Assembly: GCA_041663665.1 (NCBI GenBank)
Contig: JBAYMG010000002.1
Location: 35,509-99,508, forward strand
Length of the DNA stretch: 64,000 nucleotides
Origin: Candidatus Omnitrophota bacterium
Lineage (GTDB): Bacteria > Omnitrophota > Gorgyraeia > Gygaellales > Profunditerraquicolaceae
Direction of reading: 5' to 3'
The number at the start of each line of letters is the position of its first letter. The first letter of the stretch is position 1. A model generated the notes under the pieces. The model saw only the letters and a program-made list of their open reading frames with translations. It did not search any database and was not told the DNA's origin. The position numbers and the translations under genes are program-made. This document shows positions 6,888 through 33,330 of this stretch, piece by piece.

Positions 6888-6892
6888 ACAAG

Positions 6893-14983: not shown

Positions 14984-15023
14984 ATAAAACCTTCGTCTGC
15001 TTATTAAGCAAACGAAGGTTTTT
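14984..15023 (-). terminator. rho-independent terminator (bidirectional-looking) after the 15219..16247 gene
   Basis: Stem ccttcgt/acgaagg with T-runs on both strands. Confidence 0.45.
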
Positions 15024-15218
15024 CTTATTTTAAAGTGGAGGTTCCCCCTTCAAACTGCACCACTATAGTATCTTTTATTAACACCTTTAATGATACCACT
15101 AATTTAATACGCGTCAATAGAAATACCTTATCCCTAAAAATATTAGTTATGGCCCTATTTCATTACGAGACATTATTGCTAGGGAATAGGTAAGAATAAA
15201 TTCTCCCACGGTAGGTAC

Positions 15219-16629: not shown

Positions 16630-18294
16630 TTAGCCTCTCCTGTGCCAACCATACCAGCCGTAAGGCACGCGTCCAGTTGCATCTGGATACATATCGGGAT
16701 TACAAGGCAGTTTACTACCATCACCACCAACCCAAAACATAAAGTTATTATCCTCCAGAGCCAATTTTACAGCTAGCCATAAAGCATCTATTGCATCATC
16801 ATGCGCGCCTTTCGGACAATGTTTCATTTGTTCAATCAAAACATGCAGTCTTCTGCTAAGCTGTAGTACCCCGCTGGCAAAGAGAGGCTGAAGCGATTGA
16901 AAACGCCCCAGCTTGTCTGTAGTATTCGGAATACCCACAACTGGCACATAAACCTGCGCTAACTCGCTACGCCTTTTCAACTCAGAAGCAAGAAACTCCT
17001 GAAACTGGTTAGTTTCAACCCCGAACTTCGTGTAACCGCGTATCTTCTGATATGACATAATCGTCTCAATTATGTTATCGGGTTTGCGCTTCGCCACGTC
17101 CGCGTCAATAACATAAAGGGTTCCTTTTTCAGTGTCTTTTGCTACGGTTACAATAGCAGTATAGTCGCTCCTTCTGCTCTCTTTGCCAAGACTCGGGTCG
17201 CAACCGCCATACATCCTCTTCTTTGCGCCTAAATTTACCAGCAGATTTTCTGTACTAAAATGCTTATCCTCCAAACCACCGTAGCTATCGGCATCAAATA
17301 TCCGATCCCTGGGATTTACCGGCTCATTTTGCATTTCACTGTCAAAACTTGCTGTTCCTTCCTCTAAGCGCATGACCATAAGGTCATAATAACTGTATTT
17401 TGCCTCCCAGAGAACCTGGGCCCCCTCAAGCATCTGGGTTTTGTTTTGCTCAAAGAACCTTAGCGCCGCTTCAGGCCCTTCGCCTCCTTCAAAGGCATCC
17501 TGGTGGCTATATATCCTTTCCCATTTCTCCCACAGCTCAGGATGCACAGACCACGATATGATCGAACGGTAGATGCGTTTTTCCCAGCCAGGATGTGCGT
17601 CGGAACTTGTAAATTGCGCCAGGAGCGATCCGTAATTGTGGATTGTCCCAAGAAAAACTACATTGGTTGCGCTTGTGCCGGATTTTAATACTGACCGGGT
17701 GAGATAATCATAGAGTCTTTCGAAGTTCTCGGTAGACTGAATAGCATTACCCGCCTCCAGATCATCAAGAATGATCAAGCTGGGCCGTGATTGCTTGTAC
17801 TTACGGCTCCTGATCTGCTGGTTATAGCCAAGCGCAAGCACTTCGATGCCATTTTTGGTAATAATATCATCTTGTCTCCAGCGTGGCGGTTTGGGTTTTT
17901 CGCCGATTTCGCAAATATCGGGAAAATCATCCTTGAGACGCGGGTTAGTCTCAAGCTCAAACTTGATGTTAGTTAGGAAACTTTCGGCCTGCTCCTTGGT
18001 GTTGGAAATAATCACAATAAAATCTTCCAAATGGTAGCAAATACAATAAATTACAAACTCAAAGGACGCAATGGTGCTTTTGGCGCTGTTACGCGGGGAG
18101 GCCAGGGCAATACGAACTCCACGCTTCCTAGAAGCCCCCACTAGTAACTCCCCTATATCCCGATGGAATGGCGCATCGGCAATAGAATGGTAAAGCGGAA
18201 AATAATATTTTCTAAAATACTCGAAGTTTCTTCCGAAAGACCGCCGTAATTTTATTGCATCGCCTTTTACTTGATATAACTGGGCATTATTCAT
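16630..18294 (-). CDS. Phage terminase large subunit
   Basis: 554 aa. N-terminal ATPase region (RIALASPRNSAKST). C-terminal RNaseH-like nuclease region GGCDPSLGKESRRSDYTAIVTVAKD. Confidence 0.85.
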   Translation of the reverse strand: MNNAQLYQVKGDAIKLRRSFGRNFEYFRKYYFPLYHSIADAPFHRDIGELLVGASRKRGVRIALASPRNSAKSTIASFEFVIYCICYHLEDFIVIISNTKEQAESFLTNIKFELETNPRLKDDFPDICEIGEKPKPPRWRQDDIITKNGIEVLALGYNQQIRSRKYKQSRPSLIILDDLEAGNAIQSTENFERLYDYLTRSVLKSGTSATNVVFLGTIHNYGSLLAQFTSSDAHPGWEKRIYRSIISWSVHPELWEKWERIYSHQDAFEGGEGPEAALRFFEQNKTQMLEGAQVLWEAKYSYYDLMVMRLEEGTASFDSEMQNEPVNPRDRIFDADSYGGLEDKHFSTENLLVNLGAKKRMYGGCDPSLGKESRRSDYTAIVTVAKDTEKGTLYVIDADVAKRKPDNIIETIMSYQKIRGYTKFGVETNQFQEFLASELKRRSELAQVYVPVVGIPNTTDKLGRFQSLQPLFASGVLQLSRRLHVLIEQMKHCPKGAHDDAIDALWLAVKLALEDNNFMFWVGGDGSKLPCNPDMYPDATGRVPYGWYGWHRRG

Positions 18295-18932
18295 TTTTTT
18301 CCCTCCTGTTCTTGGGTTATTTCATTCTCAAGATGCTCGACTTCCGATTGGATATTTTTTATTTTCTCCTGATCAGATGGCTCAATTCCTCCTGTCTGGC
18401 TGGCAATGGCTTCAATATCTTTAATGCTGTTTTTTATCTCATCACACATCGCTTGACCATCTGAAGTGGAAAAATGGTGAAAGAAATCTCCTGTGAGAGC
18501 CTGTTCTTTTAGCGGTAAGAAACCGAGGCTCTGGAGCTTCTCGGTTAATTCCTTTACCACCCGCCAGGAGGCAAATTCAGCCTGAGTTTTCTCGCCAATT
18601 GAGCCATCTTTTGAGCGGGCAAGCCGCAGGAGATATAAATGGCTTGTTCTTGCCTTTTGAACCAATTCACCAATAAACTGCTTGGCCTGTTCTAAGCTTG
18701 GCGTAAGGGCGTTCTTCCTGCGGATTTCTTCAAAGTACCTATACACAGTACGATCCGATTTATTCAAAAGCTGAGCTATCTGGGATATTGAAGATCCTTC
18801 AGCGTATAAAACAGAAACAATCTGCTCAATTGTTTCAGGAGGAAGGCTCGAAACCCTAACGGTACCGCTCTGAATACCCTGGATATAAAAGGTGGTGGGT
18901 TTCTCAGAAGAATTTTTATTTTTTGCCATTTT
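18291..18932 (-). CDS. Terminase small-subunit-like HTH protein
   Basis: Internal start MAKNKNSS chosen to avoid overlap with the upstream gene. HTH SISQIAQLLNKSDRTVYRYFEEI. Directly upstream of TerL. Confidence 0.45.
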   Translation of the reverse strand, partial: KMAKNKNSSEKPTTFYIQGIQSGTVRVSSLPPETIEQIVSVLYAEGSSISQIAQLLNKSDRTVYRYFEEIRRKNALTPSLEQAKQFIGELVQKARTSHLYLLRLARSKDGSIGEKTQAEFASWRVVKELTEKLQSLGFLPLKEQALTGDFFHHFSTSDGQAMCDEIKNSIKDIEAIASQTGGIEPSDQEKIKNIQSEVEHLENEITQEQEGKK

Positions 18933-20181
18933 TACTTCCTCCAAAATACTTTTGCCGCACTTCCGGTGAAACCGAATCCATCCCGAAGGCGCGGATGTAA
19001 CGCCGAACAGCAACATCCACATAAAGGGGTTCAATCTCACAGCCCCGAAACACCCTACCCATTTGTTGGCAGGCAATAAGGTTAAACCCTGCGCCCATGC
19101 AGCCGTCAAAAACGACATCATTACGCTCACTGCTGTTAGTCAAGACACGCCGAGCAAGCGATACCGGTTTTGCCGTCGGATGTAATTTGCCAACAGCCTC
19201 ATCATGGTCGAATTGCCAGACATTAGTTTCATTTTTTGGCCCATACCAGCGGTGTGGCCCATTACCTTTGCGCCATGAATAAAGTAAAAACTCTGAGGAA
19301 AATTTGTAATCACCAAACCCTGGGCAGGCGGAGGGTTTAATCCCGGTTATCACATTGGCCACATGGAAATTCATCTCAAGCAAAAGCTGTGTCATCAAAC
19401 CAAAATTGCGGAATCCACCCCAGAGATAAACCGGCGCACCCTCAACGAGGAATTGCATAACGTTCGCCATCACCTCTCTGAGCCACTTTAAATACTCTTC
19501 CCCAACCAAATCATCGTTCTCGATAGGCTTCCAATCCGGCCTCTGCTTTTCTTTGTGCGCAGACTTCGGCCGGTTGCGGGAATCGTAAGCGCAACCGTAG
19601 GGAAGATCCATGTGCAAGAGCGAAATCTTTTCATCGCCTAAAAGGCGCTCAAGGTTATCTTTCTTGGCAGTATCGAAGCAACCGAACTTGTGAAGACCAA
19701 CCTCCACAATATCGCCAGGAACTGTAACCGGCTTATCTATTTGCGAGATTTCTTTTTCGATATCAAAGTCCTCGTCAATCTGCGCAGTGTAGGTATCTAG
19801 GATATGAAACACTTCAATCGGCTCAAATCCGGTTAGGTTCAGCAGTTCCGGAGTCTTCATAATCTCTTGGAAAATTACCGGCAGGCTGGGGTTATCAAAT
19901 TCCCCGACGAGTTTATTTAGCGCCAAATTTAACGCCATTTCCTCTTCAATTGACAGGTCTACCGAAACCACGTTAACTTCTGTATACCCCAACTCGAGCA
20001 GGGCGCGCAGGCGCTGATTACCTCCAACCACATGCCAAGTTCGCATATTGACGATAAGCGGAGAGTAAACTTTAAATCTTCTAATGTTTTCTTTGAGCTT
20101 CTCAAAAACCGCCTTCTTCATCCTGCGCGGGTTGTAAGGCGCGAACTTTAACTTTTCAATTGCCATCTTTTGTCTTTCCAT
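18916..20181 (-). CDS. ParB-like nuclease domain / DNA methyltransferase fusion (phage-type)
   Basis: 421 aa. N-terminal ParB/Srx pattern (KLKFAPYNPRRM...VVGGNQRLRALLELG). MTase motif IV-like DLPYG and motif I-like VFDGCMGAGFN near the C-terminus (beta-class order). Confidence 0.65.
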   Translation of the reverse strand: MERQKMAIEKLKFAPYNPRRMKKAVFEKLKENIRRFKVYSPLIVNMRTWHVVGGNQRLRALLELGYTEVNVVSVDLSIEEEMALNLALNKLVGEFDNPSLPVIFQEIMKTPELLNLTGFEPIEVFHILDTYTAQIDEDFDIEKEISQIDKPVTVPGDIVEVGLHKFGCFDTAKKDNLERLLGDEKISLLHMDLPYGCAYDSRNRPKSAHKEKQRPDWKPIENDDLVGEEYLKWLREVMANVMQFLVEGAPVYLWGGFRNFGLMTQLLLEMNFHVANVITGIKPSACPGFGDYKFSSEFLLYSWRKGNGPHRWYGPKNETNVWQFDHDEAVGKLHPTAKPVSLARRVLTNSSERNDVVFDGCMGAGFNLIACQQMGRVFRGCEIEPLYVDVAVRRYIRAFGMDSVSPEVRQKYFGGSKNGKK

Positions 20182-20586: not shown

Positions 20587-21009
20587 TTATTTTGTCTTGC
20601 TTCCCAAAATAGCATTATTTAACTGCCATTGCATGATTTCGGTCTGTTTATTCATTATTATTACTTGAGATACCCCAGCAATAACCAAGACCAGGGTAAG
20701 AAGAGCCATTATGGTAGAATTAATATTCTGAGATTTTGCTGACTCTTTGTTTGAATTAATAATTTTTTCCGTAGAGTCTTTAATAGAATCTCTCAGCTCT
20801 TTTATGCTTTTGTTCGTTATCCCTATTGTACCATTTAAACTCGAAACATTATTACTAAGTGCTTCTTTAAAGATTGCGATTTCACTACTTAAAAACCGGA
20901 TACATTTTGATTGCAAGACAGCCTCAGCGGGAGATGCACTTGTCGAATCGGTAACCCTAGAAAGCAGCTCTTCTAATTCATCGATTGACATCTTAGCCAG
21001 GTTATTCAT
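20587..21009 (-). CDS. Coiled-coil protein with C-terminal transmembrane helix (hypothetical)
   Basis: 140 aa. Hydrophobic segment IMALLTLVLVIAGVSQVIIM near the C-terminus. 52 bp downstream of the Ntn-hydrolase gene, same strand. Confidence 0.4.
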   Translation of the reverse strand: MNNLAKMSIDELEELLSRVTDSTSASPAEAVLQSKCIRFLSSEIAIFKEALSNNVSSLNGTIGITNKSIKELRDSIKDSTEKIINSNKESAKSQNINSTIMALLTLVLVIAGVSQVIIMNKQTEIMQWQLNNAILGSKTK

Positions 21010-21061
21010 ATGCGCTCCTTCTGATTATGAGTAATACATATATTTTTTGCATAGCTAAATG

Positions 21062-21889
21062 CTAGCTTTTAATTTGTAATTCTTTTTTTTGTATCCATTT
21101 AAAACCGTCACGATGAGTTATTACAGCTATATCTACATCACCGCCACATCCCGGAACATCCCCTGGACTCATATTTATACCATCAGAAAATCGTTGCATT
21201 TTAATAGTGCTATTAACCATTAATAATGCAAAATCTACTGCATCCTGTAAAGCCATCGTAGACCAGTTTATTACATATTGCAACCCTGCCACCTGTGTAG
21301 CAATCGGAAGTTGATTCAAAGGTGGATTTGCAAGTATGTGCTGAACGACCGGAAGTTGTTCAATCCTTGGATCGAAGCCAAGGACCAACCTCATTACAAC
21401 ATCTACCTGACCATTCCAATTACAGCCAGCATTATTAGTATTACGAAGCAAGCTCGGAGCTCCCGGTGGTATTTGACACAAATGGACTTCTCCTACTGTG
21501 GAATTTTGATTGTACCCAACTACTTGAAATCCTACCGCTATACCACCCTGTGGAGCTGGGTTCCATTTTAAGGAAGTAATATTGTAGTTATAGATTTGCT
21601 GAAAATACTCGGATAGACGGGTTGCGGCCTCAGCAACATTGATTTCAGGATCTAAGGTCGACCTAAAATCTTCAACCAAAGCACCAATACTTATAAGGGA
21701 ATTGGCAGTTTCAGGCTTCAAAAATCCCCAACCGAAAGTAGCTACTGCAATTCTAGGTGACAATTGGAAAACTTTCGAGGCAAAATCAGAACCAACCCTA
21801 GCTTGCTGTTTTGGGTTGATATTAGTTTGTCTGCTATCCGCTGCCAAAACTATTCCCTCAGGAATAGCAACCGATATAATTATCGACAT
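21062..21889 (-). CDS. Proteasome-beta/HslV-like Ntn-hydrolase family protein
   Basis: 275 aa. N-terminus MSIIISVAIPEGIVLAADSRQT aligns with the proteasome/HslV start ([21 protein letters not shown]). Lys33-region KVFQL...IAVATFGWG matches K(V)xxL..(V/I)A..F.GG. GCGG matches the GSGG loop. Extra C-terminal extension of about 80 aa. Confidence 0.6.
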   Translation of the reverse strand: MSIIISVAIPEGIVLAADSRQTNINPKQQARVGSDFASKVFQLSPRIAVATFGWGFLKPETANSLISIGALVEDFRSTLDPEINVAEAATRLSEYFQQIYNYNITSLKWNPAPQGGIAVGFQVVGYNQNSTVGEVHLCQIPPGAPSLLRNTNNAGCNWNGQVDVVMRLVLGFDPRIEQLPVVQHILANPPLNQLPIATQVAGLQYVINWSTMALQDAVDFALLMVNSTIKMQRFSDGINMSPGDVPGCGGDVDIAVITHRDGFKWIQKKELQIKS

Positions 21890-21902
21890 CTTACTCTCCT
21901 TG

Positions 21903-22790
21903 TTATTTAGGTAAATCTGCTGGTAAATCTGATTTTAGATACTTCTTCAAACCGGCTTTATCGCCCTTGCCAACCAAAAAATCACATACAAAACAACCAG
22001 GTCTCTTATTATCTTTGCTTGGAACAACTTTTCCTTGATCCATTCCTTTATAGGTTAACATGCGTTCTGGCTGCCTTATACCTGTAAGTAACATTAAAAA
22101 CTCTGTGACTGCTAATCCTGCGATAGTCGTGTTTAGAGAAATTACCGCTGGCGCAGTTACTGAAACACCCAATCCATATCCGTGATTTTTCCGAAATACC
22201 TTTTCCTCATCACTCTCAAGCTCTTGCTTTGCTATTTCCGGATCAATCTGATTAGCACATAATAAACAAAAATCACCTGGCCTAGCAATAACTACCCTGC
22301 CTCCAAAATTTATGATTTTATCTCCTTCGCAAAATATTTCTGTTGCACAATCGATTAACACCTTTCTGTATGCAGCCGCGAGCTCAGTCAATATCATCCG
22401 GGCGCTATCGTTGTCCACGCAACCAAAAATTACATCTGGAAATGTTGATAGGCCTTCCAATGCTTCTGCCGTACGTAGATTACCTAGAGAAATAACCCTG
22501 GCTTCTGAATTTATAGATTTAATAACTCTTTGAGCTACTTCGATCTTTAGAGTTTTGTTTGTAACATCTTCTCTCGTAGAGCCAACGAGTCTATTCAAAT
22601 TCGACCCCTCTACTCGATCATCATCAAGAAGCATAAATTCCTGGATACCCAAATAAGCTAACATTTGCAGAATGCAAGATCCCATGCCACCTAAACCAAC
22701 AATCCCAACTTTAGTATTCATTATTACTTTTTGCCCTTCTGTTCCGAAAGCAAGAATTTGCCTTGCAAACTTATCTTGCGATTCAACCAT
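21903..22790 (-). CDS. E1-like ubiquitin-activating enzyme (ThiF/MoeB family; BilD-like)
   Basis: 295 aa. VGIVGLGGMGSCILQMLAYLGIQEFMLLDDDRVEGSNLNRL Rossmann/ATP motif. C-terminal Cys pairs (LLCANQ...CFVCDF). Confidence 0.85.
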   Translation of the reverse strand: MVESQDKFARQILAFGTEGQKVIMNTKVGIVGLGGMGSCILQMLAYLGIQEFMLLDDDRVEGSNLNRLVGSTREDVTNKTLKIEVAQRVIKSINSEARVISLGNLRTAEALEGLSTFPDVIFGCVDNDSARMILTELAAAYRKVLIDCATEIFCEGDKIINFGGRVVIARPGDFCLLCANQIDPEIAKQELESDEEKVFRKNHGYGLGVSVTAPAVISLNTTIAGLAVTEFLMLLTGIRQPERMLTYKGMDQGKVVPSKDNKRPGCFVCDFLVGKGDKAGLKKYLKSDLPADLPK

Positions 22791-23331
22791 GATTCCACCT
22801 CCTAAAAATACTTAAAAGTGACTTCTTAAGGGGAACCCCAACAATGTATTTAAATTTACCCGCGCTATCAACAACCCTTATTTCATTTATAAGCAGTGGC
22901 TTGCTCTGCTTAGGTAACCATATCTGCCCCCGCACGCCGTTCTTTGTAAATACGACAGCACCATATAGCTTATTGGGCAGTTTCCACCATACATATTGAA
23001 CAAATGCGTCCAAGCCATGCACATCGCTTGGAGAAAAAGCGGCGGGTCCGTTAAAACGATTGGAGTGACATTCCATTAAGTCACAATCATATTCACGCGC
23101 CTTCAGCATTACCTCAACTTTTTCGCGCTCATCAAGCTCCAAATGACAGTCGCTTTGGTAGACCCACCCGCCAGCCCCTATAGCATGGATATCCTTTACT
23201 TCAAATTCTATTGAGGATGGCTTTATACTGCTTTTAACAAAGAGAAAACAGCCCTGTTCTTTTCTTCCCCTGAAGAGGTGCTTCCGAACAAGGCTGTATT
23301 GCCGTTCTACAAATGACAGAGCAATAAACAT
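22783..23331 (-). CDS. JAB/MPN-domain (JAMM) peptidase-like protein (BilC-like), non-canonical metal motif
   Basis: 182 aa. EQGCFLFV (JAMM Glu region) then ECHSNRFNGPAAFSPSD in place of the canonical HxHx7Sx2D. 8-bp overlap with the E1 gene. Confidence 0.55.
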   Translation of the reverse strand: MFIALSFVERQYSLVRKHLFRGRKEQGCFLFVKSSIKPSSIEFEVKDIHAIGAGGWVYQSDCHLELDEREKVEVMLKAREYDCDLMECHSNRFNGPAAFSPSDVHGLDAFVQYVWWKLPNKLYGAVVFTKNGVRGQIWLPKQSKPLLINEIRVVDSAGKFKYIVGVPLKKSLLSIFRRWNHG

Positions 23332-23717
23332 TAGTTCAATTCCCTCAACCTGAGGTTAACAGACTTCATAAAAGTAAGCAGATTATCCCCTTTCTGAATT
23401 TCAGCTGAGGGCTGCCATATTTCCGGGTGCCAAGAAAAACAGCCCCAAGACCCTTGTATTGGTACTTGAGCTCCTTCACTATAGCTTGCCAATGGATTGT
23501 TATTAGCGAATTTTAGCCCTGCATCAACATAAAAATTATCAGGGGAAGCATGCGGATATGAACTCGAGATCAAAAAAAGCAACCTGGTTGTTTTACAATT
23601 ATACCCCTCTGGTAAATTAAAATCTGGGATCATTATCCATGCATAGTTCTGCCCGAATTGTAAATTCGGGTACTTTGCCTTTAATAGACATGCTTCTTCG
23701 GCAATCCTTTCTTCCAC
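23331..23717 (-). CDS. E2-like ubiquitin-conjugating enzyme (BilB-like)
   Basis: 128 aa. YPHASPDNFYV (HPN-like) and a downstream Cys in GSWGCFSWHPEIW. 1-bp overlap with the JAB gene. Confidence 0.5.
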   Translation of the reverse strand: MEERIAEEACLLKAKYPNLQFGQNYAWIMIPDFNLPEGYNCKTTRLLFLISSSYPHASPDNFYVDAGLKFANNNPLASYSEGAQVPIQGSWGCFSWHPEIWQPSAEIQKGDNLLTFMKSVNLRLRELN

Positions 23718-23720
23718 TTT

Positions 23721-23966
23721 TTACCCCCTTTTAAATTTTGGGGCGCGACCGAATCTATGCCCGGGCTGCAAATAGACGATTTCACCCTCAGTAAGGGTTT
23801 TTTCAGTACCATCCGGAAATTCTTCAACTATAATCACATTCTGCGGCAAATTGCCCAATGCACGTATTTCGGCCGGGGTAATTGTTTCTTTATGCCAGGG
23901 ATATTCTGTACCTTCAATATTTACAAAGTATTTCTTGCCTTTATTATCATTCTCTTCATGATCCAT
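23721..23966 (-). CDS. Ubiquitin-like beta-grasp protein (BilA-like) with C-terminal Gly
   Basis: 81 aa, ends ...KFKRG. First gene of the Ubl-E2-JAB-E1 operon, 3 bp upstream of the E2 gene. Confidence 0.45.
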   Translation of the reverse strand: MDHEENDNKGKKYFVNIEGTEYPWHKETITPAEIRALGNLPQNVIIVEEFPDGTEKTLTEGEIVYLQPGHRFGRAPKFKRG

Positions 23967-24029
23967 TTTAACTCCTTTTGTTTGATGGTGTTATTTCACT
24001 GAACGCGGTGAAACCGAACTTAAAATTTT

Positions 24030-24584
24030 TTACCTGATTGGTTCATATACATACTGTCTACCACCTCCTGTCACTACCTCGTCTTTTGTCTTAGTCAATA
24101 GCCCCATATCTTTCAATCTGGTAAGACGGTTGCTTGCTGCACTTATATTGTCCATCTTGTCCAAATCAAAGATATCTCTAGTAGTAATCTTGCTCTTACT
24201 GACCGCGGCAAAATAGGTATTTCTTAACTCTTCGCTTAATTTCCCTAAAATTTCAACTTCAGAATTCTGTTTTGTATAAACGCAGACTAGTTCTCTTTCT
24301 TTCAAGGCCACGTTTATATTCTCTTTTAAAGAATCGCTTAGTTCCTCTAAAACAACAAACTTATCGCCGAGCTCACCACTTAGGATGCGCCGGATAATCC
24401 GGCAGAGCGTTTCATCAACAAAGGAAAAATCTATAAATTTTACTTTGCTGAAGTTTAATGGCAGGATAACATCAACTGGTTCGCTTTCGAGTCTTTTTAA
24501 TATCGACTCTCTTATGCGAGCACCTTCTTCCCTGCCACTTAACATCTCTTGATCTATTATAAAGGAAGCTATTTTTTTAAGCAT
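24030..24584 (-). CDS. STAS-like (DUF4325-like) domain protein
   Basis: 184 aa. N-terminal DVILPLNFSKVKFIDFSFVDETLCRI, an anti-sigma-antagonist-like fold. Confidence 0.45.
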   Translation of the reverse strand: MLKKIASFIIDQEMLSGREEGARIRESILKRLESEPVDVILPLNFSKVKFIDFSFVDETLCRIIRRILSGELGDKFVVLEELSDSLKENINVALKERELVCVYTKQNSEVEILGKLSEELRNTYFAAVSKSKITTRDIFDLDKMDNISAASNRLTRLKDMGLLTKTKDEVVTGGGRQYVYEPIR

Positions 24585-24650
24585 ATAATTAGTTCATCGC
24601 TTTCACTGAAGTAAGTATAAACGATTATCTTTACTTTGTCAAGGTGTTTT

Positions 24651-25538
24651 TTACGCTAATTCGGAAAGGCTTATAGACACCTGCGTTCCCGGGAACTGCA
24701 CTGTCTGAGACCCACGTGCATTATGACGCAGATATAATCGAGAATCACCAGAACGAATATGCAATGCGCCACCATAATCTTTTGCTATCTTTGAAACCAT
24801 ATATAAACCAAGCCCCCTATTGGGATAAGCTGAAAATTCTTTTTTTAAAGCCTGCACTATAGCGTCAAAATGGCTCCAGGATGAAACATCATACCTTGCC
24901 CCAAGGCTACTCTTAATTCCCACCCCTAAATCACCTACCCCAATTACAACATAGCGCTTGTTATCTAAGCGCCTTTGGTATCTTTGAACGGCCACAAACC
25001 CTTCATCCTTACTATGGTCTTTTATATTATAACAAAGCTCAGAAACAATATTGGTTAGATCTGATACTTCCTTTTCTCCAAAATTTAATTCACTATTAAG
25101 AATAGTGCTTAATCTCTCTAGGACATTTTTGATATCATCATGCGGCACTTTTTCCTTCTTCTCAATTTTAGTTAACTCAAGAACAACCTGTTGGCTCAAC
25201 TGTTGCCCAGAAGCTGAACCATCTACCGTGTTTTTAACTTGTGCGAAACTTTCGGCTAGCTTAACAAAACCCATAGCACGAAGATATGATTGGCAGTCAA
25301 AGTCATCGGGTAAAATAACGCTAAGGTTCTTAGATTTATTCCATAGCTGACGCCCGGCAAGACAAAGAGCAACTAATCCATAAGGATCAACAAACTTTAT
25401 TTTTTGCAAGTTTATTTCTACAGGAGAACCTTCTTCAAGAGGAATATTTATTTTCTTAAATAAATTGTCGCTTGTAACGGCATTCAAAGATTCATCTCCA
25501 ACGACAATTTGTTGCACTTCTAGCATAATATTTTCCAA
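24651..25538 (-). CDS. STAS-like N-domain fused to GHKL (histidine-kinase-like) ATPase
   Basis: 295 aa. VEINLQKIKFVDPYGLVALC (STAS-like). ATPase boxes SELCYNIKDHS, VIGVGDLGVGI (DxGxG), GLGLYMVSKIAKDYGG (G2). Confidence 0.6.
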   Translation of the reverse strand: MENIMLEVQQIVVGDESLNAVTSDNLFKKINIPLEEGSPVEINLQKIKFVDPYGLVALCLAGRQLWNKSKNLSVILPDDFDCQSYLRAMGFVKLAESFAQVKNTVDGSASGQQLSQQVVLELTKIEKKEKVPHDDIKNVLERLSTILNSELNFGEKEVSDLTNIVSELCYNIKDHSKDEGFVAVQRYQRRLDNKRYVVIGVGDLGVGIKSSLGARYDVSSWSHFDAIVQALKKEFSAYPNRGLGLYMVSKIAKDYGGALHIRSGDSRLYLRHNARGSQTVQFPGTQVSISLSELA

Positions 25539-25598
25539 TCTAGCCAGTCCTATAATCGCAAAGACGTAACTTAGAATGATGGGGGGCTTTCATCTTCT

Positions 25599-28406
25599 CT
25601 AGACCTGGCATGATTCTATCCACTCATTTAAGGTGTCGATAAAATTATCTACCGTAAGCTTATCATTTGGTGAACTGCCAACTCTGTGTTCGATATATTT
25701 CGGCTTCTGTAACTCCGCAAGAATATTGGCTTTCTCGTTACCCTTGCCAGAATGATGATATATCTGTCCCGTGATGATAATGTTAAAACGACTTTGCCCT
25801 CTCTTAAGGGATGAAAAAATATCTGTGTTACGAAGCTTATTATTTGGTATAAAATTAATATCAAAGTCTGTCGCTTTCAAACCATATTTTGTAAGTAGTT
25901 TTTTTGCTTCTTGCATAATACGATCATTGTCAACGGTTTCGCCAACAATACAAATATTAAGTGGTTTAGGTATCTTAGTTTCAACCTGGTCATAATTAAG
26001 TGCGTTCTGACGAATGGATGCTTCTCTTAACATTGCTCTAGCATTTTCAAGATCGATCTTTAAGATTTCATTTTGTTCCTCTTTGTCTTTAATCTTCCTG
26101 ATTGATTCGTTCAACTCACCTTCATATAGCTCAATTAATTCTTGGTCTTCCTTGGTATTCTTTATTTCATTTGCTGCTGCTATTTTTCTAATTTGCGCAA
26201 AACGAATTAAATCATTCTCGTATCGGGATCTAAAAGAATCTATTTCTTCTTGCTTCAACAATTCAAAAAATGTCGAATAATCTCTAGGGGAAAGAATAAA
26301 AAATAGGACCTTATCCTTTCCCGAATAGTTCTCAATGTATAATCTACCTGCATTTAACTTCAGAAGATTTTCATTTTTAAAATCTTTATCATCTTTAATC
26401 TCTACTATAATTGTTTCTTTCTTGGTCCGCACTATAAAATCAGGATAGAAACCATATAACGTATCTTCACCGCTTTTAGGATTCTGCTTTTTATATGGAA
26501 CCCCAAAGAACTTGCTTTCTCGATCTCCGTTCTTGAACCACCATAAAAGATAGTCATCAGAAGATTCCAATTTTAATACAAATTTCTGCTCGGGCTTTGA
26601 AATTGTAAGTTTTGAGTTCTTATCCTTCTTAAGATAATAAGGTAGCATGATTGATTTCTTAATCTGTTGCTGCTCCTCAAAATCACTGAACACGCTAATA
26701 TCTTCGGGCACTTGCCAATCATTATCTAAGATAATTGAATCTTCATGGGATGGTAAATTTGCATATTTTTGTTTTGCTTTATCAATTAATTTTTCAATAA
26801 ATGGTTGATTAATATCTCGAACAACAATATTTGCAATTTGATCCTCATCATCAATTTCAAAAAGTGAAATAAAAAGTGCGCGTAAATGACTTTTAAGTGT
26901 GTTGGTCGAGTCTACTTTTGCATATGGTACAGTACATGACTGTAAGAAACGATTATATAAATCAAAAATTTCTTCTCGGTTTTTTTCAATCTCAATTTCC
27001 TGTTTAAACTCGATTTCTTTTCTTTTCTCATCTATTGTCTTAGTGCAACCTTCAACGCCTATGGATTTTTTATAACTAGCAATTGAAATTTCTATATTTT
27101 TTTTAGCATCAAGCTCGTCTGCAGATTTAAACAAACAAGGCTTAAATGGTGATTGCAGCCGTGTTATTTCACGTTTTCTCCGAATATGTGCACTTGGTAA
27201 AGAAATTGTACGATAACATGCATTGTTACGCTCCATTACTGCACTGCTTGCGTAATCTTTAGCAATATCCTCAACAATTGTAAAATTATCAGATGCGGTG
27301 TAAACATAACCAAAATTCAGTTCTTCGTGTTCTTCATAATGCCTTTGTTCTGGCATACGCATGATACGCCCAAGTGTTTGAACATTAAATTCATAATTAT
27401 CAGAATTCCATTCTCGTTGTAATAAAAGTATGGCTGCCCGTGGACAATCCCATCCGGTTGCGATTGCTTCCTTAAAAATGAGAACATCAACAATGCTTGT
27501 CTTTTCCTTTATATCTTCCAGGTTAATCTGGCCTTCCTCTAGATAAATCCCAAGTGATCTGTTTTCTGTGGTTATACCAAACTTAGAAAGCACCTCAATA
27601 ATTTTCTCTTCTGGTGCTCGTACATCATTCTTATTTTTGCGAGGTATTTGTATTAGAAGAAGCGGGTTAATGTGTATTTTTTGTTTTTCATAACAAACTT
27701 TTAATTGCTTTCTTTTTTGCAATGCTGCTTCAACAATATCCTCATTAGTTTTAACAAAATCTTTTCGGAGACCAGGGTTAATACGTACTTCTTTTTTTAT
27801 CATCTGCTCTCCAACAACTTCTTCAATTTCAACTTTGCAACGATAATCACTAGCGACTTCTTTGGGGGTTGCCGACATTTCAATTGTTAATTCTGGATTA
27901 ATAATATCTATAACTTCTTTTGCTTTACTGGTTTTTGCTGATAAATGACTCTCATCAATTATAAGTACAACTTTACGTCCTTCATCTTTAGTATTTGAAA
28001 TTACCTTTGAAAGATTCCAATCAGTCTCATTATCTACCATAAAAAGATTACCTTCACGATTTAAGCTTTGCCAATTCACAAATAAAATTTGATTCTCTTC
28101 AAGTACGTTACCAATAATGTCTCGGATTCCTATACATTCTAAAATTCTTTCATTTTCAAAATGTTTTTCAAGACTATCACCACTTTGTTTGTGTAAATTA
28201 TTTACTGAGATCCACACAAAAGAAAGAGCATCCTTACCTTGGGTTTCTTTAACAATTTTAATTAACGATTCTGCCATTACTGTTGTTTTACCTGAACCTG
28301 TAGGAGCTTGAAATACCAAAACTTTTGGACTTGGTTCACTTAAAAATTCAACTGCATGAGTAACAATTTTATTTATGGCTTTCTGTTGATAAATTAGTTT
28401 TTTCAT
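25599..28406 (-). CDS. Type III restriction enzyme Res subunit (SF2 helicase-like)
   Basis: 935 aa. Motif I QAPTGSGKT, motif II LIIDESH, motif III MSATP. 4-bp overlap with the upstream mod gene. Confidence 0.75.
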   Translation of the reverse strand: MKKLIYQQKAINKIVTHAVEFLSEPSPKVLVFQAPTGSGKTTVMAESLIKIVKETQGKDALSFVWISVNNLHKQSGDSLEKHFENERILECIGIRDIIGNVLEENQILFVNWQSLNREGNLFMVDNETDWNLSKVISNTKDEGRKVVLIIDESHLSAKTSKAKEVIDIINPELTIEMSATPKEVASDYRCKVEIEEVVGEQMIKKEVRINPGLRKDFVKTNEDIVEAALQKRKQLKVCYEKQKIHINPLLLIQIPRKNKNDVRAPEEKIIEVLSKFGITTENRSLGIYLEEGQINLEDIKEKTSIVDVLIFKEAIATGWDCPRAAILLLQREWNSDNYEFNVQTLGRIMRMPEQRHYEEHEELNFGYVYTASDNFTIVEDIAKDYASSAVMERNNACYRTISLPSAHIRRKREITRLQSPFKPCLFKSADELDAKKNIEISIASYKKSIGVEGCTKTIDEKRKEIEFKQEIEIEKNREEIFDLYNRFLQSCTVPYAKVDSTNTLKSHLRALFISLFEIDDEDQIANIVVRDINQPFIEKLIDKAKQKYANLPSHEDSIILDNDWQVPEDISVFSDFEEQQQIKKSIMLPYYLKKDKNSKLTISKPEQKFVLKLESSDDYLLWWFKNGDRESKFFGVPYKKQNPKSGEDTLYGFYPDFIVRTKKETIIVEIKDDKDFKNENLLKLNAGRLYIENYSGKDKVLFFILSPRDYSTFFELLKQEEIDSFRSRYENDLIRFAQIRKIAAANEIKNTKEDQELIELYEGELNESIRKIKDKEEQNEILKIDLENARAMLREASIRQNALNYDQVETKIPKPLNICIVGETVDNDRIMQEAKKLLTKYGLKATDFDINFIPNNKLRNTDIFSSLKRGQSRFNIIITGQIYHHSGKGNEKANILAELQKPKYIEHRVGSSPNDKLTVDNFIDTLNEWIESCQV

Positions 28407-30286
28407 ATTTGCTTTGGCTTATAAAGATCTTTAAATATTTTACGGTATACATTCAAAATAACCTCAGGTATCGGCTTCACTTTAACATTTGCTATGTCTT
28501 CAAATTCAGTTTTATCTACCGTATGGTCATAACTAAACACATAGACAACAGTTGGTTTGGTAATTTTCTTTAACTCTCTTTTAGCCAAAGCAATTTCAGA
28601 TTCATCGTAAATAATAAGACTGACTTTTTCATCTGATTCGTATAAAGCATGCGTGGTATTTGTTACAATTTCTGTAAAAGTTTCTTCTCCGAGGCAAAGC
28701 ATCTCAGTAGCTTTACGGACAAAAACTCTTTTGTCTTTATCAGTTTTGATTTTTTGCACAAAAGCTGTTTGAAAATAACGCAGGTTTCCCCCTAGGCCTT
28801 TTTGAAAACCGCTGCTATTTGATTTACCTATAACCTTCAAAATCCCATCCGTGATTTTGATTTCGAAATCGTCAAAACGATCTTCATTGTCTGTTTTAAG
28901 CTTGTCTATTTTTCCCCAAATATTTTCAGATTTCCTAAAATCAGAAAGTGTGATTTTTTTCTCAAACAAAATACGACTATCGGACCCCTCATACTTATAT
29001 CCCTTTATTACATTTTGAATACGCGGAAGACAAATATCGCGAGCTACTTTAATGCCAGTATTGTCATTGTCTTCATTGTTGGTGCAAAGAATAAAACGCC
29101 GATCGCCCTTATCTTCTGCGTTCATCTCAAGTATCGCATGGCCTGTTGTCCCCGAACCTGCGAAGAAATCAAGCACAAGTGCATCTTGACGATTTTGTAT
29201 TACACATTCAAGACAGTCCTTCACTGTATAAAGAGATTTAGGAAATGGGAAGTCTTTCCCTGTAATTCGTTTTACAATTTTAGTACCATATTCATTCGCA
29301 TCATATCGAGTACCTGTCCAAATAGTTTTTGGACGATCCTCCGTCTTTGCAAGCTCTATTTCAATATCGCCGTTACGATTTTGTTTAACACGAAGAAGGG
29401 GGAGAATTTCTTCAACACTTTGTCTTGCGTATCTCCATTTTCTCTCCACTCCACCGTTATCAATAGGCCATACTTCTATTGCTCCATCCTTTGCCTTAAT
29501 ATTTTTTCCTTTGGGATTGAATGAGTCATTTGGAACATCACCGAAACCGACAATTATCTTATTTTTTACTAAAATTTTATAAAAACAATTTCTTGCATCT
29601 GATCGTAACGACTCGCCACCATTATCTCTGAGATTTCTAAATTCAATATCATTTTCGCTTCTTTCAAACCTTTGAATAATTTTTAGACCTTTTCTGAAAA
29701 TAAAAAAAGCAAATTCATTAGTATAAGCAAAATTATCACCTTGAACTCCGCGCGGATTATGGACAATCGCCACACAGTGAATTTCATAATCCTTGAAGAT
29801 ATCTTCGAGCAGCACCCCAAGATGTGTTTGTTCATTTTTATCAATCGCGCAAATCAGAACACCATCATCTTTGAGCAACCTTTTTGAATGCTTGAGACGC
29901 TTATCCATCATTGAAAGCCATTTGCTATGACGGAAATGATTATTTTTGTCAACGTAGTTATTGTTATATTTCCAATTTTTATCGCCATTGTTATAGGGAG
30001 GGTCAATATAAATACAATCAAAAGCTTTTTTGTGAGTGTAATTTAAAACAGATAATGCATGATAATTATCACCTTCAATAATGTAATTAAACTTTTTATT
30101 TTTATTAATGATAAGATCTTTGACTTCATTCACATTTTCAAGCACGGGTAGAAACTCTTTGCACTTCTCCGCTACCTCTTCATCTTGTGGCTCCCAAACA
30201 ATACCGAAACGCTTGCGCTTTAAAAGCACGTCGACAAAATGGACGAGCCTATCTTTTGACCATTCGTAATAAGGTTTATTTTTCAT
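28403..30286 (-). CDS. Type III R-M Mod subunit (beta-class N6A/N4C DNA methyltransferase)
   Basis: 627 aa. Motif IV CIYIDPPYNNG precedes motif I LDFFAGSGTTGHA by about 280 aa (target-recognition domain between them). Confidence 0.85.
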   Translation of the reverse strand: MKNKPYYEWSKDRLVHFVDVLLKRKRFGIVWEPQDEEVAEKCKEFLPVLENVNEVKDLIINKNKKFNYIIEGDNYHALSVLNYTHKKAFDCIYIDPPYNNGDKNWKYNNNYVDKNNHFRHSKWLSMMDKRLKHSKRLLKDDGVLICAIDKNEQTHLGVLLEDIFKDYEIHCVAIVHNPRGVQGDNFAYTNEFAFFIFRKGLKIIQRFERSENDIEFRNLRDNGGESLRSDARNCFYKILVKNKIIVGFGDVPNDSFNPKGKNIKAKDGAIEVWPIDNGGVERKWRYARQSVEEILPLLRVKQNRNGDIEIELAKTEDRPKTIWTGTRYDANEYGTKIVKRITGKDFPFPKSLYTVKDCLECVIQNRQDALVLDFFAGSGTTGHAILEMNAEDKGDRRFILCTNNEDNDNTGIKVARDICLPRIQNVIKGYKYEGSDSRILFEKKITLSDFRKSENIWGKIDKLKTDNEDRFDDFEIKITDGILKVIGKSNSSGFQKGLGGNLRYFQTAFVQKIKTDKDKRVFVRKATEMLCLGEETFTEIVTNTTHALYESDEKVSLIIYDESEIALAKRELKKITKPTVVYVFSYDHTVDKTEFEDIANVKVKPIPEVILNVYRKIFKDLYKPKQI

Positions 30287-30290
30287 ATGG

Positions 30291-30506
30291 CTATTTTATT
30301 AAATCATCTATAGTAATACCCAAGCCACTAGCTATTTTTATAACTGTTTGGATTGTCGGTTTTGTGATTACGTTAGCTTCAATCTTAGTAAGAGTGGTAT
30401 AAGGAAGATCTGACTTTCTGGCTAATCCATCTTGCGTTAAACCTAGCTTGTTTCTAATTTTTTTAATTTTGTTCCCGATTGTTTCGATATTACTTTGATT
30501 TTTCAT
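30291..30506 (-). CDS. XRE-family HTH regulator (element repressor-like)
   Basis: 71 aa. IKKIRNKLGLTQDGLARKSDLPYTTLTKIE. Divergent from the recombinase operon. Confidence 0.75.
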   Translation of the reverse strand: MKNQSNIETIGNKIKKIRNKLGLTQDGLARKSDLPYTTLTKIEANVITKPTIQTVIKIASGLGITIDDLIK

Positions 30507-30664
30507 ATACCTAAGTATGGTAGCATAATTATGGTTGCCTATATATCATTGCATAGATATGCTATCATATATTGCAATTATATACAAATAATAAATTCAT
30601 AAAATCCTCATCATTATAACTTGCTATATCTCTAACTGTATGGCTATATGTAACTAGGAGTAAA

Positions 30665-31147: not shown

Positions 31148-31155
31148 GGCCGTCC

Positions 31156-33196: not shown

Positions 33197-33330
33197 CGAC
33201 AGGGCAAAATAGTGTTTTAATTATATACTTGAGTTAAAAATCTTTCAAGAAGAATGATTAACAAGCCAAAAGGGCTAAAACGGTTAGATCCAGCCCAATT
33301 GTCAATAGTAGCGAAGTAAAAGTTAAGGAA

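What the first reader, a model, noticed from the sequence alone, without database searches (positions are those of the whole stretch)
20587..23966. Bil-like Ubl-E2-JAB-E1 operon extended by a proteasome-beta/HslV-like Ntn hydrolase and a coiled-coil membrane protein
Four tightly packed minus-strand genes (gaps -8 to +3 bp) match the order of the anti-phage Bil (bacterial ISG15-like) system: Ubl ending in Gly (BilA-like, 23721..23966), E2-like (BilB-like, 23331..23717), JAB/MPN (BilC-like, 22783..23331), ThiF/E1 (BilD-like, 21903..22790). Thirteen bp further downstream on the same strand is a 275-aa protein (21062..21889). Its N-terminus MSIIISVAIPEGIVLAADSRQT, its Lys33-region KVFQL..IAVATFGWG, and its GCGG loop track the proteasome-beta/HslV Ntn-hydrolase fold. 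A 140-aa coiled-coil/TM protein follows 52 bp later. Coupling a ubiquitin-like conjugation cascade to a proteasome-like peptidase would be a bacterial analogue of a ubiquitin-proteasome pathway inside a defense island. I am not aware of a described Bil/Bub-type system with a proteasome homologue. The tight linkage argues against chance adjacency.
Basis: partly seen in the sequence, partly recalled or inferred. Interest (0 to 1): 0.88.

Follow-up and report, generated by a model that had tools for sequence, protein, structure and literature searches.

The report
Bub-type ubiquitin-like operon beside unrelated proteasome homologue
The genes are real and the 275-aa protein does have a proteasome fold, but it and the ubiquitin-like conjugation operon are two separately inherited modules that meet at a cargo junction of a mobile island, so a bacterial "ubiquitin-proteasome pathway" is not supported.

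Summary

The Ubl-E2-JAB-E1 genes are Bub-type (6E), not Bil-type:
- The E2 has an invariant Ser and no conserved Cys.
- The E1 has a crossover-loop Tyr.
- The nearest solved relatives are Citrobacter BubB and BubCD.

The genes are unfused, BubE/DUF6527 is absent, and the JAB has lost a zinc ligand (His91Asn).

DNA homology to a sister cassette runs from the capK start to 4 bp past the E1 stop. Homology to Ntn orthologues starts at the Ntn ATG, so the 13-bp spacer is a junction between modules. None of 56 related operons carries the Ntn gene. Of 85 distant Ntn loci, only one has even a marginal ThiF-like match. The closest Ntn orthologues follow restriction-modification cargo in a serine-recombinase/terminase island.

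One caveat remains. Three of ten close orthologues lie beside or near three different Ubl systems. I read this as shared cargo slots, but a loose functional link is not excluded (about 0.1).

The parts
24651..25538 (-). CapK-like kinase (STAS-like N-terminal part plus GHKL ATPase). First gene of the inherited cassette.
   Evidence: Pfam HATPase_c 1.4e-7 and a weak STAS_2 hit. Syntenic with the 289-aa HATPase gene in L152 and with L131. DNA homology to L152 begins at 25539. CapK/CapS are described as regulators flanking 59 of 544 Bub operons (PMC13373217).
24030..24584 (-). CapS-like repressor (STAS plus winged HTH, 184 aa) with Ser54 at the phospho-acceptor position.
   Evidence: End-to-end match to 9Z72, V. 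cholerae CapS S58A, at E 2e-7. The window's Ser54 aligns with the mutated Ser58. A promoter-like site TTGACA-17-TATACT lies at 24642-24614.
23721..23966 (-). Ubiquitin-like protein (BubA-like, single beta-grasp domain) ending in Gly.
   Evidence: Pfam Multi_ubiq E 1e-4. The C-terminus (K/R)F(K/R)RG-stop is conserved in 49 of 50 relatives. Weak hit to a multi-ubiquitin domain protein, 9d59.
23331..23717 (-). E2 (BubB-like, Prok-E2 family E) with invariant Ser95/His97 in the motif FSWH. Cys93 is not conserved.
   Evidence: Pfam Prok-E2_E 3e-12. Alignment A2 of 31 sequences. The only PDB hits are Citrobacter BubB at 1e-10.
22783..23331 (-). JAB/JAMM peptidase (BubC-like). The second zinc-ligand His is replaced by Asn (H91N, codon AAT).
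   Evidence: Relatives carry E...HxH...S..D while the window copy reads ECHSN. Codon read. The family profile hits the JAB domain of BubCD at 3.8e-5, placing N91 at BubCD His93. Relatives give weak Prok-JAB hits.
21903..22790 (-). E1 (BubD-like ThiF adenylation domain, 295 aa) with two CxxC zinc motifs and an invariant crossover-loop Gly-Tyr.
   Evidence: ThiF 5e-39. Best PDB hit is Citrobacter BubCD at 1e-24, with HGYG aligned to BubCD GY. GY is invariant in 34 relatives and the loop has no conserved Cys.
21890..21902 (-). 13-bp junction between the two modules (caAGGAGagtaag). It contains a Shine-Dalgarno sequence for the Ntn gene.
   Evidence: Sequence read. Cassette homology ends at 21899 and Ntn homology starts at 21889 or 21900. 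No terminator-like site lies between E1 and Ntn.
21062..21889 (-). Proteasome-beta-like Ntn hydrolase (PMI-like family). Predicted Ser1 nucleophile after Met removal, and a roughly 40-aa helical insertion between H3 and H4.
20587..21009 (-). Orphan 140-aa protein, coiled-coil-like with one C-terminal transmembrane helix. Belongs to neither module.
   Evidence: No Pfam, PADLOC or PHROG hit. Maximum hydrophobicity at residues 100-118. No homologue in 150 loci. The downstream neighbours of Ntn orthologues are all different.
16630..20181 (-). Island backbone shared with the sister element L009: ParB-N6/N4 methyltransferase (18916-20181), HTH/sigma-like 279-aa protein (18291-19130), large terminase (16630-18294).
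   Evidence: Pfam and PHROG hits. L006/L009 carry the same order Ntn, ParB-MTase, 223 aa, TerL, with phmmer E values of 2e-92, 5e-40 and 1e-118.
25599..32799 (.). Other end of the island: type III-like restriction-modification genes (ResIII 25599-28406 and N6_N4 MTase 28403-30286, minus strand), then DUF2924 (30665-31147) and a large serine recombinase (31156-32799) on the plus strand. tRNA-Gln lies at 33133-33206.
   Evidence: The serine recombinase and DUF2924 are shared with L009.

Best explanation
Two independent modules abut inside an integrated mobile island (about 5.3-32.8 kb). The island is bounded by a serine recombinase next to tRNA-Gln and carries a terminase but no capsid genes.

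Module 1 (25538-21903) is a six-gene cassette: capK, capS, Ubl, E2, JAB, E1. It is a Bub-type (6E) ubiquitin-like conjugation pathway.
- Regulation (inferred from the Bub and CapK/CapS literature): CapK senses DNA damage or single-stranded DNA and phosphorylates CapS at Ser54, which derepresses the operon.
- Chemistry (inferred): the E1 adenylates the C-terminal Gly of the Ubl and takes it onto the crossover-loop Tyr as an oxyester. The E2 takes it onto Ser95. The Ubl is then conjugated to target amines.
- Shown here: these residues are conserved and align with the residues of Citrobacter BubB and BubCD.
- This clade has all four enzymes unfused and lacks the BubE/DUF6527 protease. In this copy the JAB deconjugase has lost a zinc ligand (H91N), so it is probably impaired.

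Module 2 (21889-21062) is a PMI-like proteasome homologue. Its Ser nucleophile is exposed by Met removal and its Asp/Lys/Gly catalytic set is intact. The gene travels with the island backbone (HTH_17-DUF6941-Ntn in L009 and L155; Ntn-ParB-MTase-terminase in L009 and the window). Variable cargo slots lie on both sides of it. Its substrate is unknown. I infer that it is a stand-alone peptidase serving the element or acting as its own defence cargo.

In this window the Bub cassette occupies the upstream slot. Because the spacer holds only a ribosome-binding site and no terminator, the Ntn gene is probably read through from the damage-inducible Bub promoter. This is an incidental transcriptional coupling, not an evolved functional one.
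For: Modularity:
- blastn block window 25539..21899 = L152 7175..10821 (74% over 3662 bp), exactly capK to E1.
- The Ntn ORF matches L009, L007, L154 and L156 from its ATG, and L155 from 11 bp upstream.
- In L152 the same cassette is followed by DUF2188, Endonuclease_NS and a serine recombinase, with no Ntn gene.

Reverse test: 56 E2-related loci keep the order Ubl-E2-JAB-E1. None has an Ntn homologue and no gene is conserved downstream of E1.

Forward test: 91 Ntn loci. The only clear ThiF within 10 kb is in L006/L009; a marginal ThiF-like match (E 1e-3) lies about 8 kb away in L015.

Cargo upstream of close orthologues:
- HinfI RM
- type I RM
- type III RM
- DpnII RM

Bub identity. CapS identity. 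Regulators CapH/CapP lie upstream of 12-18 related operons. Ntn fold and catalytic residues. The Ntn family has no domain fusions among its 150 best representatives; all are 127-398 aa.
Against: - Three of ten close-clade Ntn contexts carry a Ubl/E1/E2/JAB system: the window (Bub-type, 13 bp upstream), L155 (Bil-type, 71 bp downstream) and L009 (UBC-type, 6.5 kb downstream). That is more than I would expect for such rare systems.
- This Bub clade lacks BubE, and the window's JAB is crippled, which leaves room for a substitute protease.
- Most context contigs are short (4-8 kb) and the sample is small.
- The biochemical steps for Bub, CapK and CapS are transferred from enterobacterial homologues and were not tested here.
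Confidence: 0.75

Rival explanations
1. Functional coupling. The proteasome-like hydrolase is an accessory protease for ubiquitin-like conjugation systems in these Omnitrophota-type islands, and it is indifferent to the Ubl type. It might degrade or process Ubl-tagged proteins, or replace the missing BubE or the crippled JAB as a deconjugase.
For: - 13-bp spacing with a ribosome-binding site and no terminator.
- A 72%-identical orthologue is followed 71 bp later by a Bil-type operon in L155.
- The sister island L009 carries an E1-Ubl-UBC-JAB operon.
- BubE is absent from this Bub clade.
- JAB H91N in the window.
- The catalytic residues are intact.
Against: - The homology blocks break exactly between E1 and Ntn.
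- The Ubl operons lie on different sides of the Ntn gene and at different distances, and belong to three unrelated families.
- 0 of 56 related Bub-type operons has the Ntn gene.
- Among 85 distant Ntn loci there is no significant E1 and no E2; the only match is a marginal ThiF-like ORF in L015 at E 1e-3.
- Seven of ten close orthologues have no Ubl system.
- The nearest cassette relative (L152, 74% DNA identity) works in a different island without the Ntn gene.
- There is no Ubl-binding domain or fusion in 150 representatives.
Confidence: 0.12
2. Decaying cargo. The Bub-type cassette in this window is being inactivated (JAB H91N), so neither it nor any interplay with the Ntn hydrolase is functional in this genome.
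For: The window's JAB is the only one of 44 sequences with Asn at the second zinc-ligand His, a single C-to-A change.
Against: All six ORFs are intact and tightly spaced. The other catalytic residues are retained: E2 Ser95/His97, E1 GY and CxxC pairs, Ubl C-terminal Gly and CapS Ser54. The Ubl needs no processing because it already ends in Gly, so conjugation could proceed without the JAB. A single MAG base could also be a consensus or sequencing error.
Confidence: 0.08
3. Assembly chimera. The adjacency of E1 and Ntn is a metagenome mis-join at a repeated sequence.
For: The junction coincides exactly with the borders of two homology blocks. The source is a MAG contig.
Against: The same backbone (serine recombinase/DUF2924 on one side, Ntn/ParB-MTase/TerL on the other) flanks the cargo region in L009, so the join is consistent with one island. 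No repeat lies at the junction. GC content is similar across it.
Confidence: 0.03

Closest known systems
Bub (bacterial ubiquitination-like, formerly 6E/DUF6527) operons, Types I and II (Ye et al., bioRxiv 10.1101/2024.11.21.623953; Gong et al., 10.1101/2024.11.21.623966)
   Same: The E2 belongs to Prok-E2 family E and has a catalytic-position Ser in place of Cys. The E1 has a crossover-loop Tyr and no catalytic Cys. The Ubl is multi-ubiquitin-type and ends in Gly. The peptidase is a JAB. CapK/CapS (here) or CapH/CapP (relatives) act as adjacent regulators. Citrobacter BubB and BubCD are the best or only solved relatives of the E2, JAB and E1.
   Different: All four proteins are separate. Type I has Ubl-E2 and JAB-E1 fusions, and Type II has an E2-E1 fusion. 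No BubE/DUF6527 serine protease lies in or near the operon, here or in related loci. The window's JAB carries H91N.
Type I/II BilABCD (bacterial ISG15-like) systems
   Same: Gene content and order Ubl-E2-JAB-E1, and residence in a defence island.
   Different: Bil E2 enzymes use a conserved Cys/His pair, and BilD is a protein of about 450 aa with IAD-AAD-CYS domains. Here the E2 Cys is not conserved and the E1 is a 295-aa single adenylation domain. PADLOC BilA, BilB and BilC models do not hit, and BilD hits only through the ThiF core (7.6e-5).
PMI-type proteasome homologues ('Proteasome homolog with Multiple Insertions'; Fuchs, Alva and Lupas 2021, PMC8665760)
   Same: Proteasome-beta fold, no propeptide, Ser/Thr1-Asp17-Lys33-Gly47 set, an insertion between H3 and H4 (plus one after H2 in the 310-330-aa relatives), a distribution across bacteria and Euryarchaeota with a few viral contigs, and no AAA+ partner.
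   Different: Assignment to a particular PMI cluster could not be tested because their sequences are not held here. That paper found no informative genomic context. Here the close clade is a backbone gene of serine-recombinase/terminase islands and is flanked by defence cargo.
HslV, Anbu, BPH and 20S beta subunits
   Different: No HslU or AAA+ gene, and no Anbu-type operon partners. The protein is 275 aa with a helical H3/H4 insertion that could prevent stacking into double rings. The nucleophile is mostly Ser rather than Thr.

Membership tests
Bub (6E) ubiquitination-like operon | E2 of Prok-E2 family E with a catalytic Ser (oxyester) instead of Cys | tested here: met
   PF14462 at 3e-12. Ser95 and His97 are invariant while Cys93 varies (C/Y/R/Q/M/W) in 31 sequences. 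The profile hits only Citrobacter BubB, with the Ser in register.
Bub (6E) ubiquitination-like operon | E1 without a catalytic Cys and with a conserved crossover-loop Tyr | tested here: met
   Best PDB hit is BubCD at 1e-24, with HGYG aligned to the GY of BubCD. GY is invariant in 34 relatives. The only conserved Cys residues are the two CxxC zinc motifs.
Bub (6E) ubiquitination-like operon | BubE (DUF6527/PF20137) serine protease encoded in the operon | tested here: not met
   None of the window's neighbours hits DUF6527 at E<=0.1. Among 115 ORFs flanking related operons within 3.5 kb, no recurrent DUF6527 was found, and no gene is conserved downstream of E1.
Bub (6E) ubiquitination-like operon | Type-defining fusions: Ubl-E2 plus JAB-E1 (Type I), or E2-E1 (Type II) | tested here: not met
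   The window and its close relatives have four separate ORFs. Only distant relatives such as L143 have a JAB-E1 fusion.
Bub (6E) ubiquitination-like operon | Functional JAB/JAMM zinc site (E, HxH, S, D) | tested here: inconclusive
   The motif is present in 43 relatives. The window reads HSN (H91N), at the position of BubCD His93.
Bub (6E) ubiquitination-like operon | Adjacent DNA-damage-responsive regulators (CapW, CapH+CapP or CapK+CapS) | tested here: met
   The 184-aa protein matches V. cholerae CapS (9Z72) at 2e-7 and has Ser54. A GHKL/STAS protein lies upstream. Peptidase_M78 plus HTH_3 lie upstream of relatives.
BilABCD (Type I/II) | E2 with a conserved catalytic Cys and adjacent His | tested here: not met
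   Cys93 is not conserved in the E2 family. No PADLOC BilB hit.
BilABCD (Type I/II) | E1 with IAD-AAD-CYS architecture (about 450 aa, BilD_N) | tested here: not met
   The E1 is 295 aa with one ThiF domain. PADLOC BilD hits at only 7.6e-5, over the ThiF core. In contrast, the L155 E1 is 469 aa and hits BilD at 1.6e-10 over its N-terminal half.
Proteasome-like Ntn hydrolases (MEROPS T1-like) | Alpha-beta-beta-alpha proteasome fold | tested here: met
Proteasome-like Ntn hydrolases (MEROPS T1-like) | N-terminal Thr/Ser nucleophile with Asp/Glu17, Lys33 and Gly47 equivalents | tested here: met
   In 95 unique family members: S/T2 in 93, D/E18 in 95, K39 in 95 and G53 in 95. Ser2 is in register with Thr1 of archaeal beta subunits. 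Exposure of the nucleophile by Met removal is inferred.
Proteasome-like Ntn hydrolases (MEROPS T1-like) | Ring or barrel self-compartmentalising assembly | not testable with these tools
   Only a monomer model could be made. The H3/H4 insertion (residues about 171-213) lies where Fuchs et al. argue that double-ring stacking would be hindered.
PMI subgroup (Fuchs et al. 2021) | Clustering with the PMI-1..6 sequence clusters | not testable with these tools
   Their sequences and CLANS map are not available here. Only the insertion pattern (H3/H4, plus after H2 in the long forms) and the taxonomic spread agree with the description.
   0 of 56 related operons has the peptidase. No significant E1 and no E2 lie near 85 distant peptidase loci; there is one marginal ThiF-like match, in L015. 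Three of ten close orthologues lie near three different Ubl systems, in different positions.
HslVU | Adjacent AAA+ unfoldase partner (HslU) | tested here: not met
   No AAA+ unfoldase appears among the window's island genes or among the recurrent neighbours of 91 family loci.

The most novel reading that the evidence does not exclude
A clade of PMI-type proteasome homologues carried on Omnitrophota-like mobile islands may be a dedicated protease partner of bacterial ubiquitin-like conjugation, working with whichever system the island carries (Bub-type here, Bil-type in L155, UBC-type in L009). That would be a primitive, modular 'tag and cleave' pathway. In the BubE-less Bub clade it might replace BubE or JAB.
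Probability: 0.1. Interest if true: 0.85.

Novelty: new variant of a known kind. Interest (0 to 1): 0.38.

Why it matters
The headline idea, a bacterial ubiquitin-proteasome analogue, would be important, but the comparative evidence does not support it. Three smaller findings remain.

1. There is a clade of about 50 Bub-type conjugation operons with all enzymes unfused and no BubE. They are regulated by CapK/CapS or CapH/CapP. This shows that BubE is not obligatory for this chemistry and widens the published Type I/II scheme.

2. This is the first genomic context for a PMI-like proteasome homologue, a family for which Fuchs et al. found no context. It is a backbone gene of serine-recombinase/terminase islands and lies between two defence-cargo slots.

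3. The same peptidase clade is repeatedly found near three different ubiquitin-like systems. This is cheap to test and would matter if it proved non-random.

Tried and rejected
- PADLOC on all nine proteins: only the E1 hits, to Cap2-like E1-E2 models and weakly to BilD. The region is therefore not a catalogued Bil system.
- Single-sequence PDB search with the Ntn protein: nothing. A family profile was needed.
- Close Ntn and E2 relatives in IMG/VR: none. Only eight relatives at about 30% identity were found on viral contigs.
- tblastn of the Ntn protein against cultured phages and plasmids: no match.
- Search for a conserved partner next to Ntn genes: the clusters found reflect lineage synteny (Methanobacterium, Caldiserica). 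A sigma-70-like gene lies upstream in nine loci. No E1, E2 or AAA+ gene was found.
- Downstream neighbours of close Ntn orthologues: all are different (lipoprotein-like, DUF4145, TM proteins). The idea of an 'Ntn plus membrane protein' pair was therefore rejected.
- Direct repeats or att sites for the island: none convincing.
- Domain fusions of the Ntn family as a Rosetta-stone clue: none.
- Three literature searches failed on term-length rules, as did two in-paper term look-ups. The search on Pfam names was uninformative.
- Not done: a structure prediction for the JAB or the TM protein, and a homologue search for the TM protein. I judged both to be of low value.

Full report
**Observation**

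Pfam gives Multi_ubiq (E 1e-4, sub-threshold) for the 81-aa protein, Prok-E2_E (3e-12) for the 128-aa protein and ThiF (5e-39) for the 295-aa protein. The 275-aa protein gets a sub-threshold Proteasome hit (E 0.01). The 182-aa and 140-aa proteins get nothing. PADLOC recognises only the E1. The window matches a 188-kb Candidatus Omnitrophota MAG contig at 100%.

**The 275-aa protein is a proteasome-like Ntn hydrolase**

- It belongs to a large family. There were 577 hits in the 90% clusters. In the 50% representative library there were 294 representatives at E<=1e-30 and 1503 at E<=1e-10. All of the best 150 are single-domain proteins of 127-398 aa.
- A 50-sequence profile hits 20S alpha and beta subunits at 4e-5, with Ser2 in register with the mature Thr1.
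- The AF2 model is confident (pLDDT 89.4, pTM 0.87).
- In 95 unique members the catalytic set is retained: Met1 followed by Ser/Thr (93), Asp/Glu18 (95), Lys39 (95) and Gly53 (95).
- The model has a helical insertion of about 40 residues between H3 and H4. Relatives of 310-330 aa also have about 45 extra residues after H2.
- This insertion pattern and the taxonomic spread (CPR, Atribacterota, Caldisericota, Chloroflexota, Methanobacteriaceae and a few viral contigs) fit the 'PMI' proteasome homologues of Fuchs, Alva and Lupas 2021. Those authors reported no informative genomic context. I could not test cluster membership directly.

**The conjugation genes are Bub-type, not Bil-type**

- E2. 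In 31 homologues Cys93 is not conserved, while Ser95 and His97 (FSWH) are invariant. The only solved relatives are Citrobacter BubB (1e-10), with the Ser in register.
- E1. The best solved relative is Citrobacter BubCD (1e-24). The window's HGYG aligns with the BubCD crossover-loop GY. GY is invariant in 34 relatives, and apart from the two CxxC zinc motifs no Cys is conserved.
- These are the hallmarks of the oxyester chemistry described for Bub operons, formerly 6E/DUF6527.
- Ubl. It ends in (K/R)F(K/R)RG-stop in 49 of 50 relatives.
- JAB. The profile of the 182-aa family hits only the JAB domain of BubCD (3.8e-5), and relatives give weak Prok-JAB hits. All 43 relatives carry the HxH zinc motif. 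The window copy reads HSN, a single C-to-A change at the position of BubCD His93.
[quoted passage not shown] This holds here and among 115 ORFs flanking related operons.
- Bil criteria are not met. The E2 lacks a catalytic Cys and the E1 is not an IAD-AAD-CYS protein of about 450 aa.

**The operon extends upstream, not downstream**

The two genes upstream of the Ubl are a GHKL/STAS protein (24651-25538) and a 184-aa protein (24030-24584). The 184-aa protein matches V. cholerae CapS (9Z72, the S58A mutant) end to end at 2e-7, and the window's Ser54 sits at the phospho-acceptor position. CapK and CapS are published DNA-damage-responsive regulators found next to 59 of 544 Bub operons. The same pair precedes the closest cassettes, L152 and L131. 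More distant relatives instead carry divergent CapP (Peptidase_M78) and CapH (HTH_3).

**Is the proteasome homologue part of the system?**

Reverse test. A metagenome scan with the E2 alignment returned 55 loci, and one more locus (L152) came from a contig look-up.
- The order Ubl-E2-JAB-E1 is conserved. JAB and E1 are fused in the distant relatives.
- Twenty-four loci have at least 900 bp after E1.
- None contains an Ntn homologue by phmmer, nor by a family HMM at E<=1.
- No gene is conserved downstream of E1.

Forward test. I examined 91 non-redundant Ntn loci: 80 species genomes, 8 viral contigs and the contig look-ups.
- A clear ThiF lies within 10 kb only in L006/L009.
- The only other match is a marginal ThiF-like ORF (E 1e-3) about 8 kb from the Ntn gene in L015.
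- No E2, Ubl or separate JAB was found.

DNA-level test.
- Window 25539..21899 aligns with L152 at 74% over 3662 bp. This runs from the capK start to 4 bp past the E1 stop.
- The Ntn ORF aligns with L009, L007, L154 and L156 starting exactly at its ATG, and with L155 from 11 bp upstream.
- The 13-bp spacer (TAA-caAGGAGagtaag-ATG) is therefore the seam between two separately inherited modules.
- No terminator-like site lies there, so read-through transcription of the Ntn gene is likely. I regard that as incidental.

**The setting is a mobile island**

Genes from about 5.3 to 32.8 kb include the following:
- a reverse transcriptase plus PRTase-CE;
- an HTH_17 protein;
- a 1279-aa STAND NTPase;
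- TerL, an HTH/sigma-like protein and a ParB-methyltransferase;
- the 140-aa protein and the Ntn gene;
- the Bub cassette;
- a type III-like RM pair;
- DUF2924 and a large serine recombinase next to tRNA-Gln.

No capsid or portal genes were found.

A sister island in another Omnitrophota MAG (L006/L009) has the same ends and the same Ntn-ParB-MTase-HTH-TerL block. Between the recombinase and the Ntn gene it carries a different RM system plus HTH_17 and DUF6941.

Other close Ntn orthologues follow various cargo:
- a HinfI RM;
- a type I RM;
- a type III RM;
- a DpnII RM.

What follows them also differs: lipoprotein-like genes, DUF4145, TM proteins or a ParB-MTase. L155 and L009 share HTH_17-DUF6941-Ntn at 77.5% identity and diverge 18 bp before the Ntn stop. 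The Ntn gene therefore lies between two cargo slots. The 140-aa membrane protein has no homologue anywhere and simply occupies the downstream slot.

**The caveat**

Among ten contexts of the close clade (at least 60% identity), three carry a ubiquitin-like system.
- The window has the Bub-type cassette in the upstream slot.
- L155 has a Bil-type operon 71 bp downstream, with BilC at 7.8e-10 and BilD at 1.6e-10.
- L009 has an E1-Ubl-UQ_con-JAB operon 6.5 kb away, beyond TerL.

Such systems are rare, so this is more than I would have guessed. However, the three systems belong to unrelated families, sit in different positions, and each module exists elsewhere without the other. Bub-type operons are also common in the same sediment and Omnitrophota data sets. 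I read the pattern as shared cargo slots in defence-rich islands. I leave about 0.1 for a genuine, type-agnostic functional link. The sample is small and many contigs are short.

**Verdict**

The sequence observation is correct, and the fold prediction was a good call. The interpretation as a single Ubl-plus-proteasome unit is not supported.

What is present is a CapK/CapS-controlled Bub-type conjugation cassette that is split, lacks BubE and has a probably crippled JAB. It abuts an independently inherited PMI-like proteasome homologue that belongs to the island backbone, followed by an orphan membrane protein.

The mechanistic steps for the Bub chemistry and for CapK/CapS signalling are inferred from characterised homologues. 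The residues they need are shown here to be conserved. The substrate of the Ntn hydrolase remains unknown.

Noticed in passing
window 22783-23331 (codon at 23059-23061): The JAB peptidase has Asn instead of the second zinc-ligand His (HSN versus HxH in 43 relatives). This is a single C-to-A change, so it could be an inactivating mutation or a MAG consensus error.
   Followed up: partly
L155 2243-4935: A 72%-identical Ntn orthologue is followed 71 bp later by a Bil-type operon. It comprises an 89-aa beta-grasp protein, a 158-aa E2 with an HPN...C motif, a 180-aa JAB (HTHP) and a 469-aa BilD-like E1.
   Followed up: partly
L009 14859-20115: The sister island carries, beyond its terminase, the genes Trypsin_2, a 248-aa protein, a 79-aa DnaJ-domain protein, E1 (ThiF plus zinc ribbon), an 86-aa Ubl, a UQ_con-type E2, a JAB and DUF2085. 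This is a eukaryote-like UBC-type ubiquitination operon.
   Followed up: partly
window 15013-15100: A conserved non-coding stretch (52-90 nt, 76-88% identity) is shared with L007 3281-3331 and L154 5400-5488. In L154 it lies just upstream of the Ntn gene. In the window it is followed by a hairpin and a T-run. It may be a regulatory or recombination element of this island family.
   Followed up: no
window 5289-7756: A reverse transcriptase (RVT_1, phrog_2825) lies next to a PRTase-CE protein. This is a retron- or DRT-like defence pair at the far end of the island.
   Followed up: no
window 11113-14952: A 1279-aa protein with a novel STAND NTPase 5 domain (Avs-like candidate) lies between the terminase block and the RT pair.
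   Followed up: no
window 16630-20181 and 30665-33206: The island has TerL, an HTH/sigma-like protein and a ParB-methyltransferase but no capsid or portal genes. Its other end has DUF2924 and a large serine recombinase beside tRNA-Gln. It may be a satellite-like or degraded prophage element that carries defence cargo.
   Followed up: partly
L004, L018, L020, L024, L027, L031, L045, L048, L059 (upstream of the Ntn homologue): A sigma-70/ECF-like gene lies about 200 bp to 2.7 kb upstream of distant Ntn homologues in nine loci from several phyla. In L020, L027 and L045 it occurs together with ParB-MTase, TerL or serine-recombinase genes.
   Followed up: no
L155 5119-5200 and 5471-5543; L007 107-179, 2011-2093 and 7517-7593: Short repeats of about 75-85 nt (80-85% identity) are shared between two Ntn-bearing contigs, outside the coding blocks.
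   Followed up: no
window 51446-51605: A 6S RNA gene (Rfam RF00013, 68.6 bits) lies in the chromosomal part of the window. A tRNA-Val/Leu/Cys cluster lies at 61139-61461.
   Followed up: no
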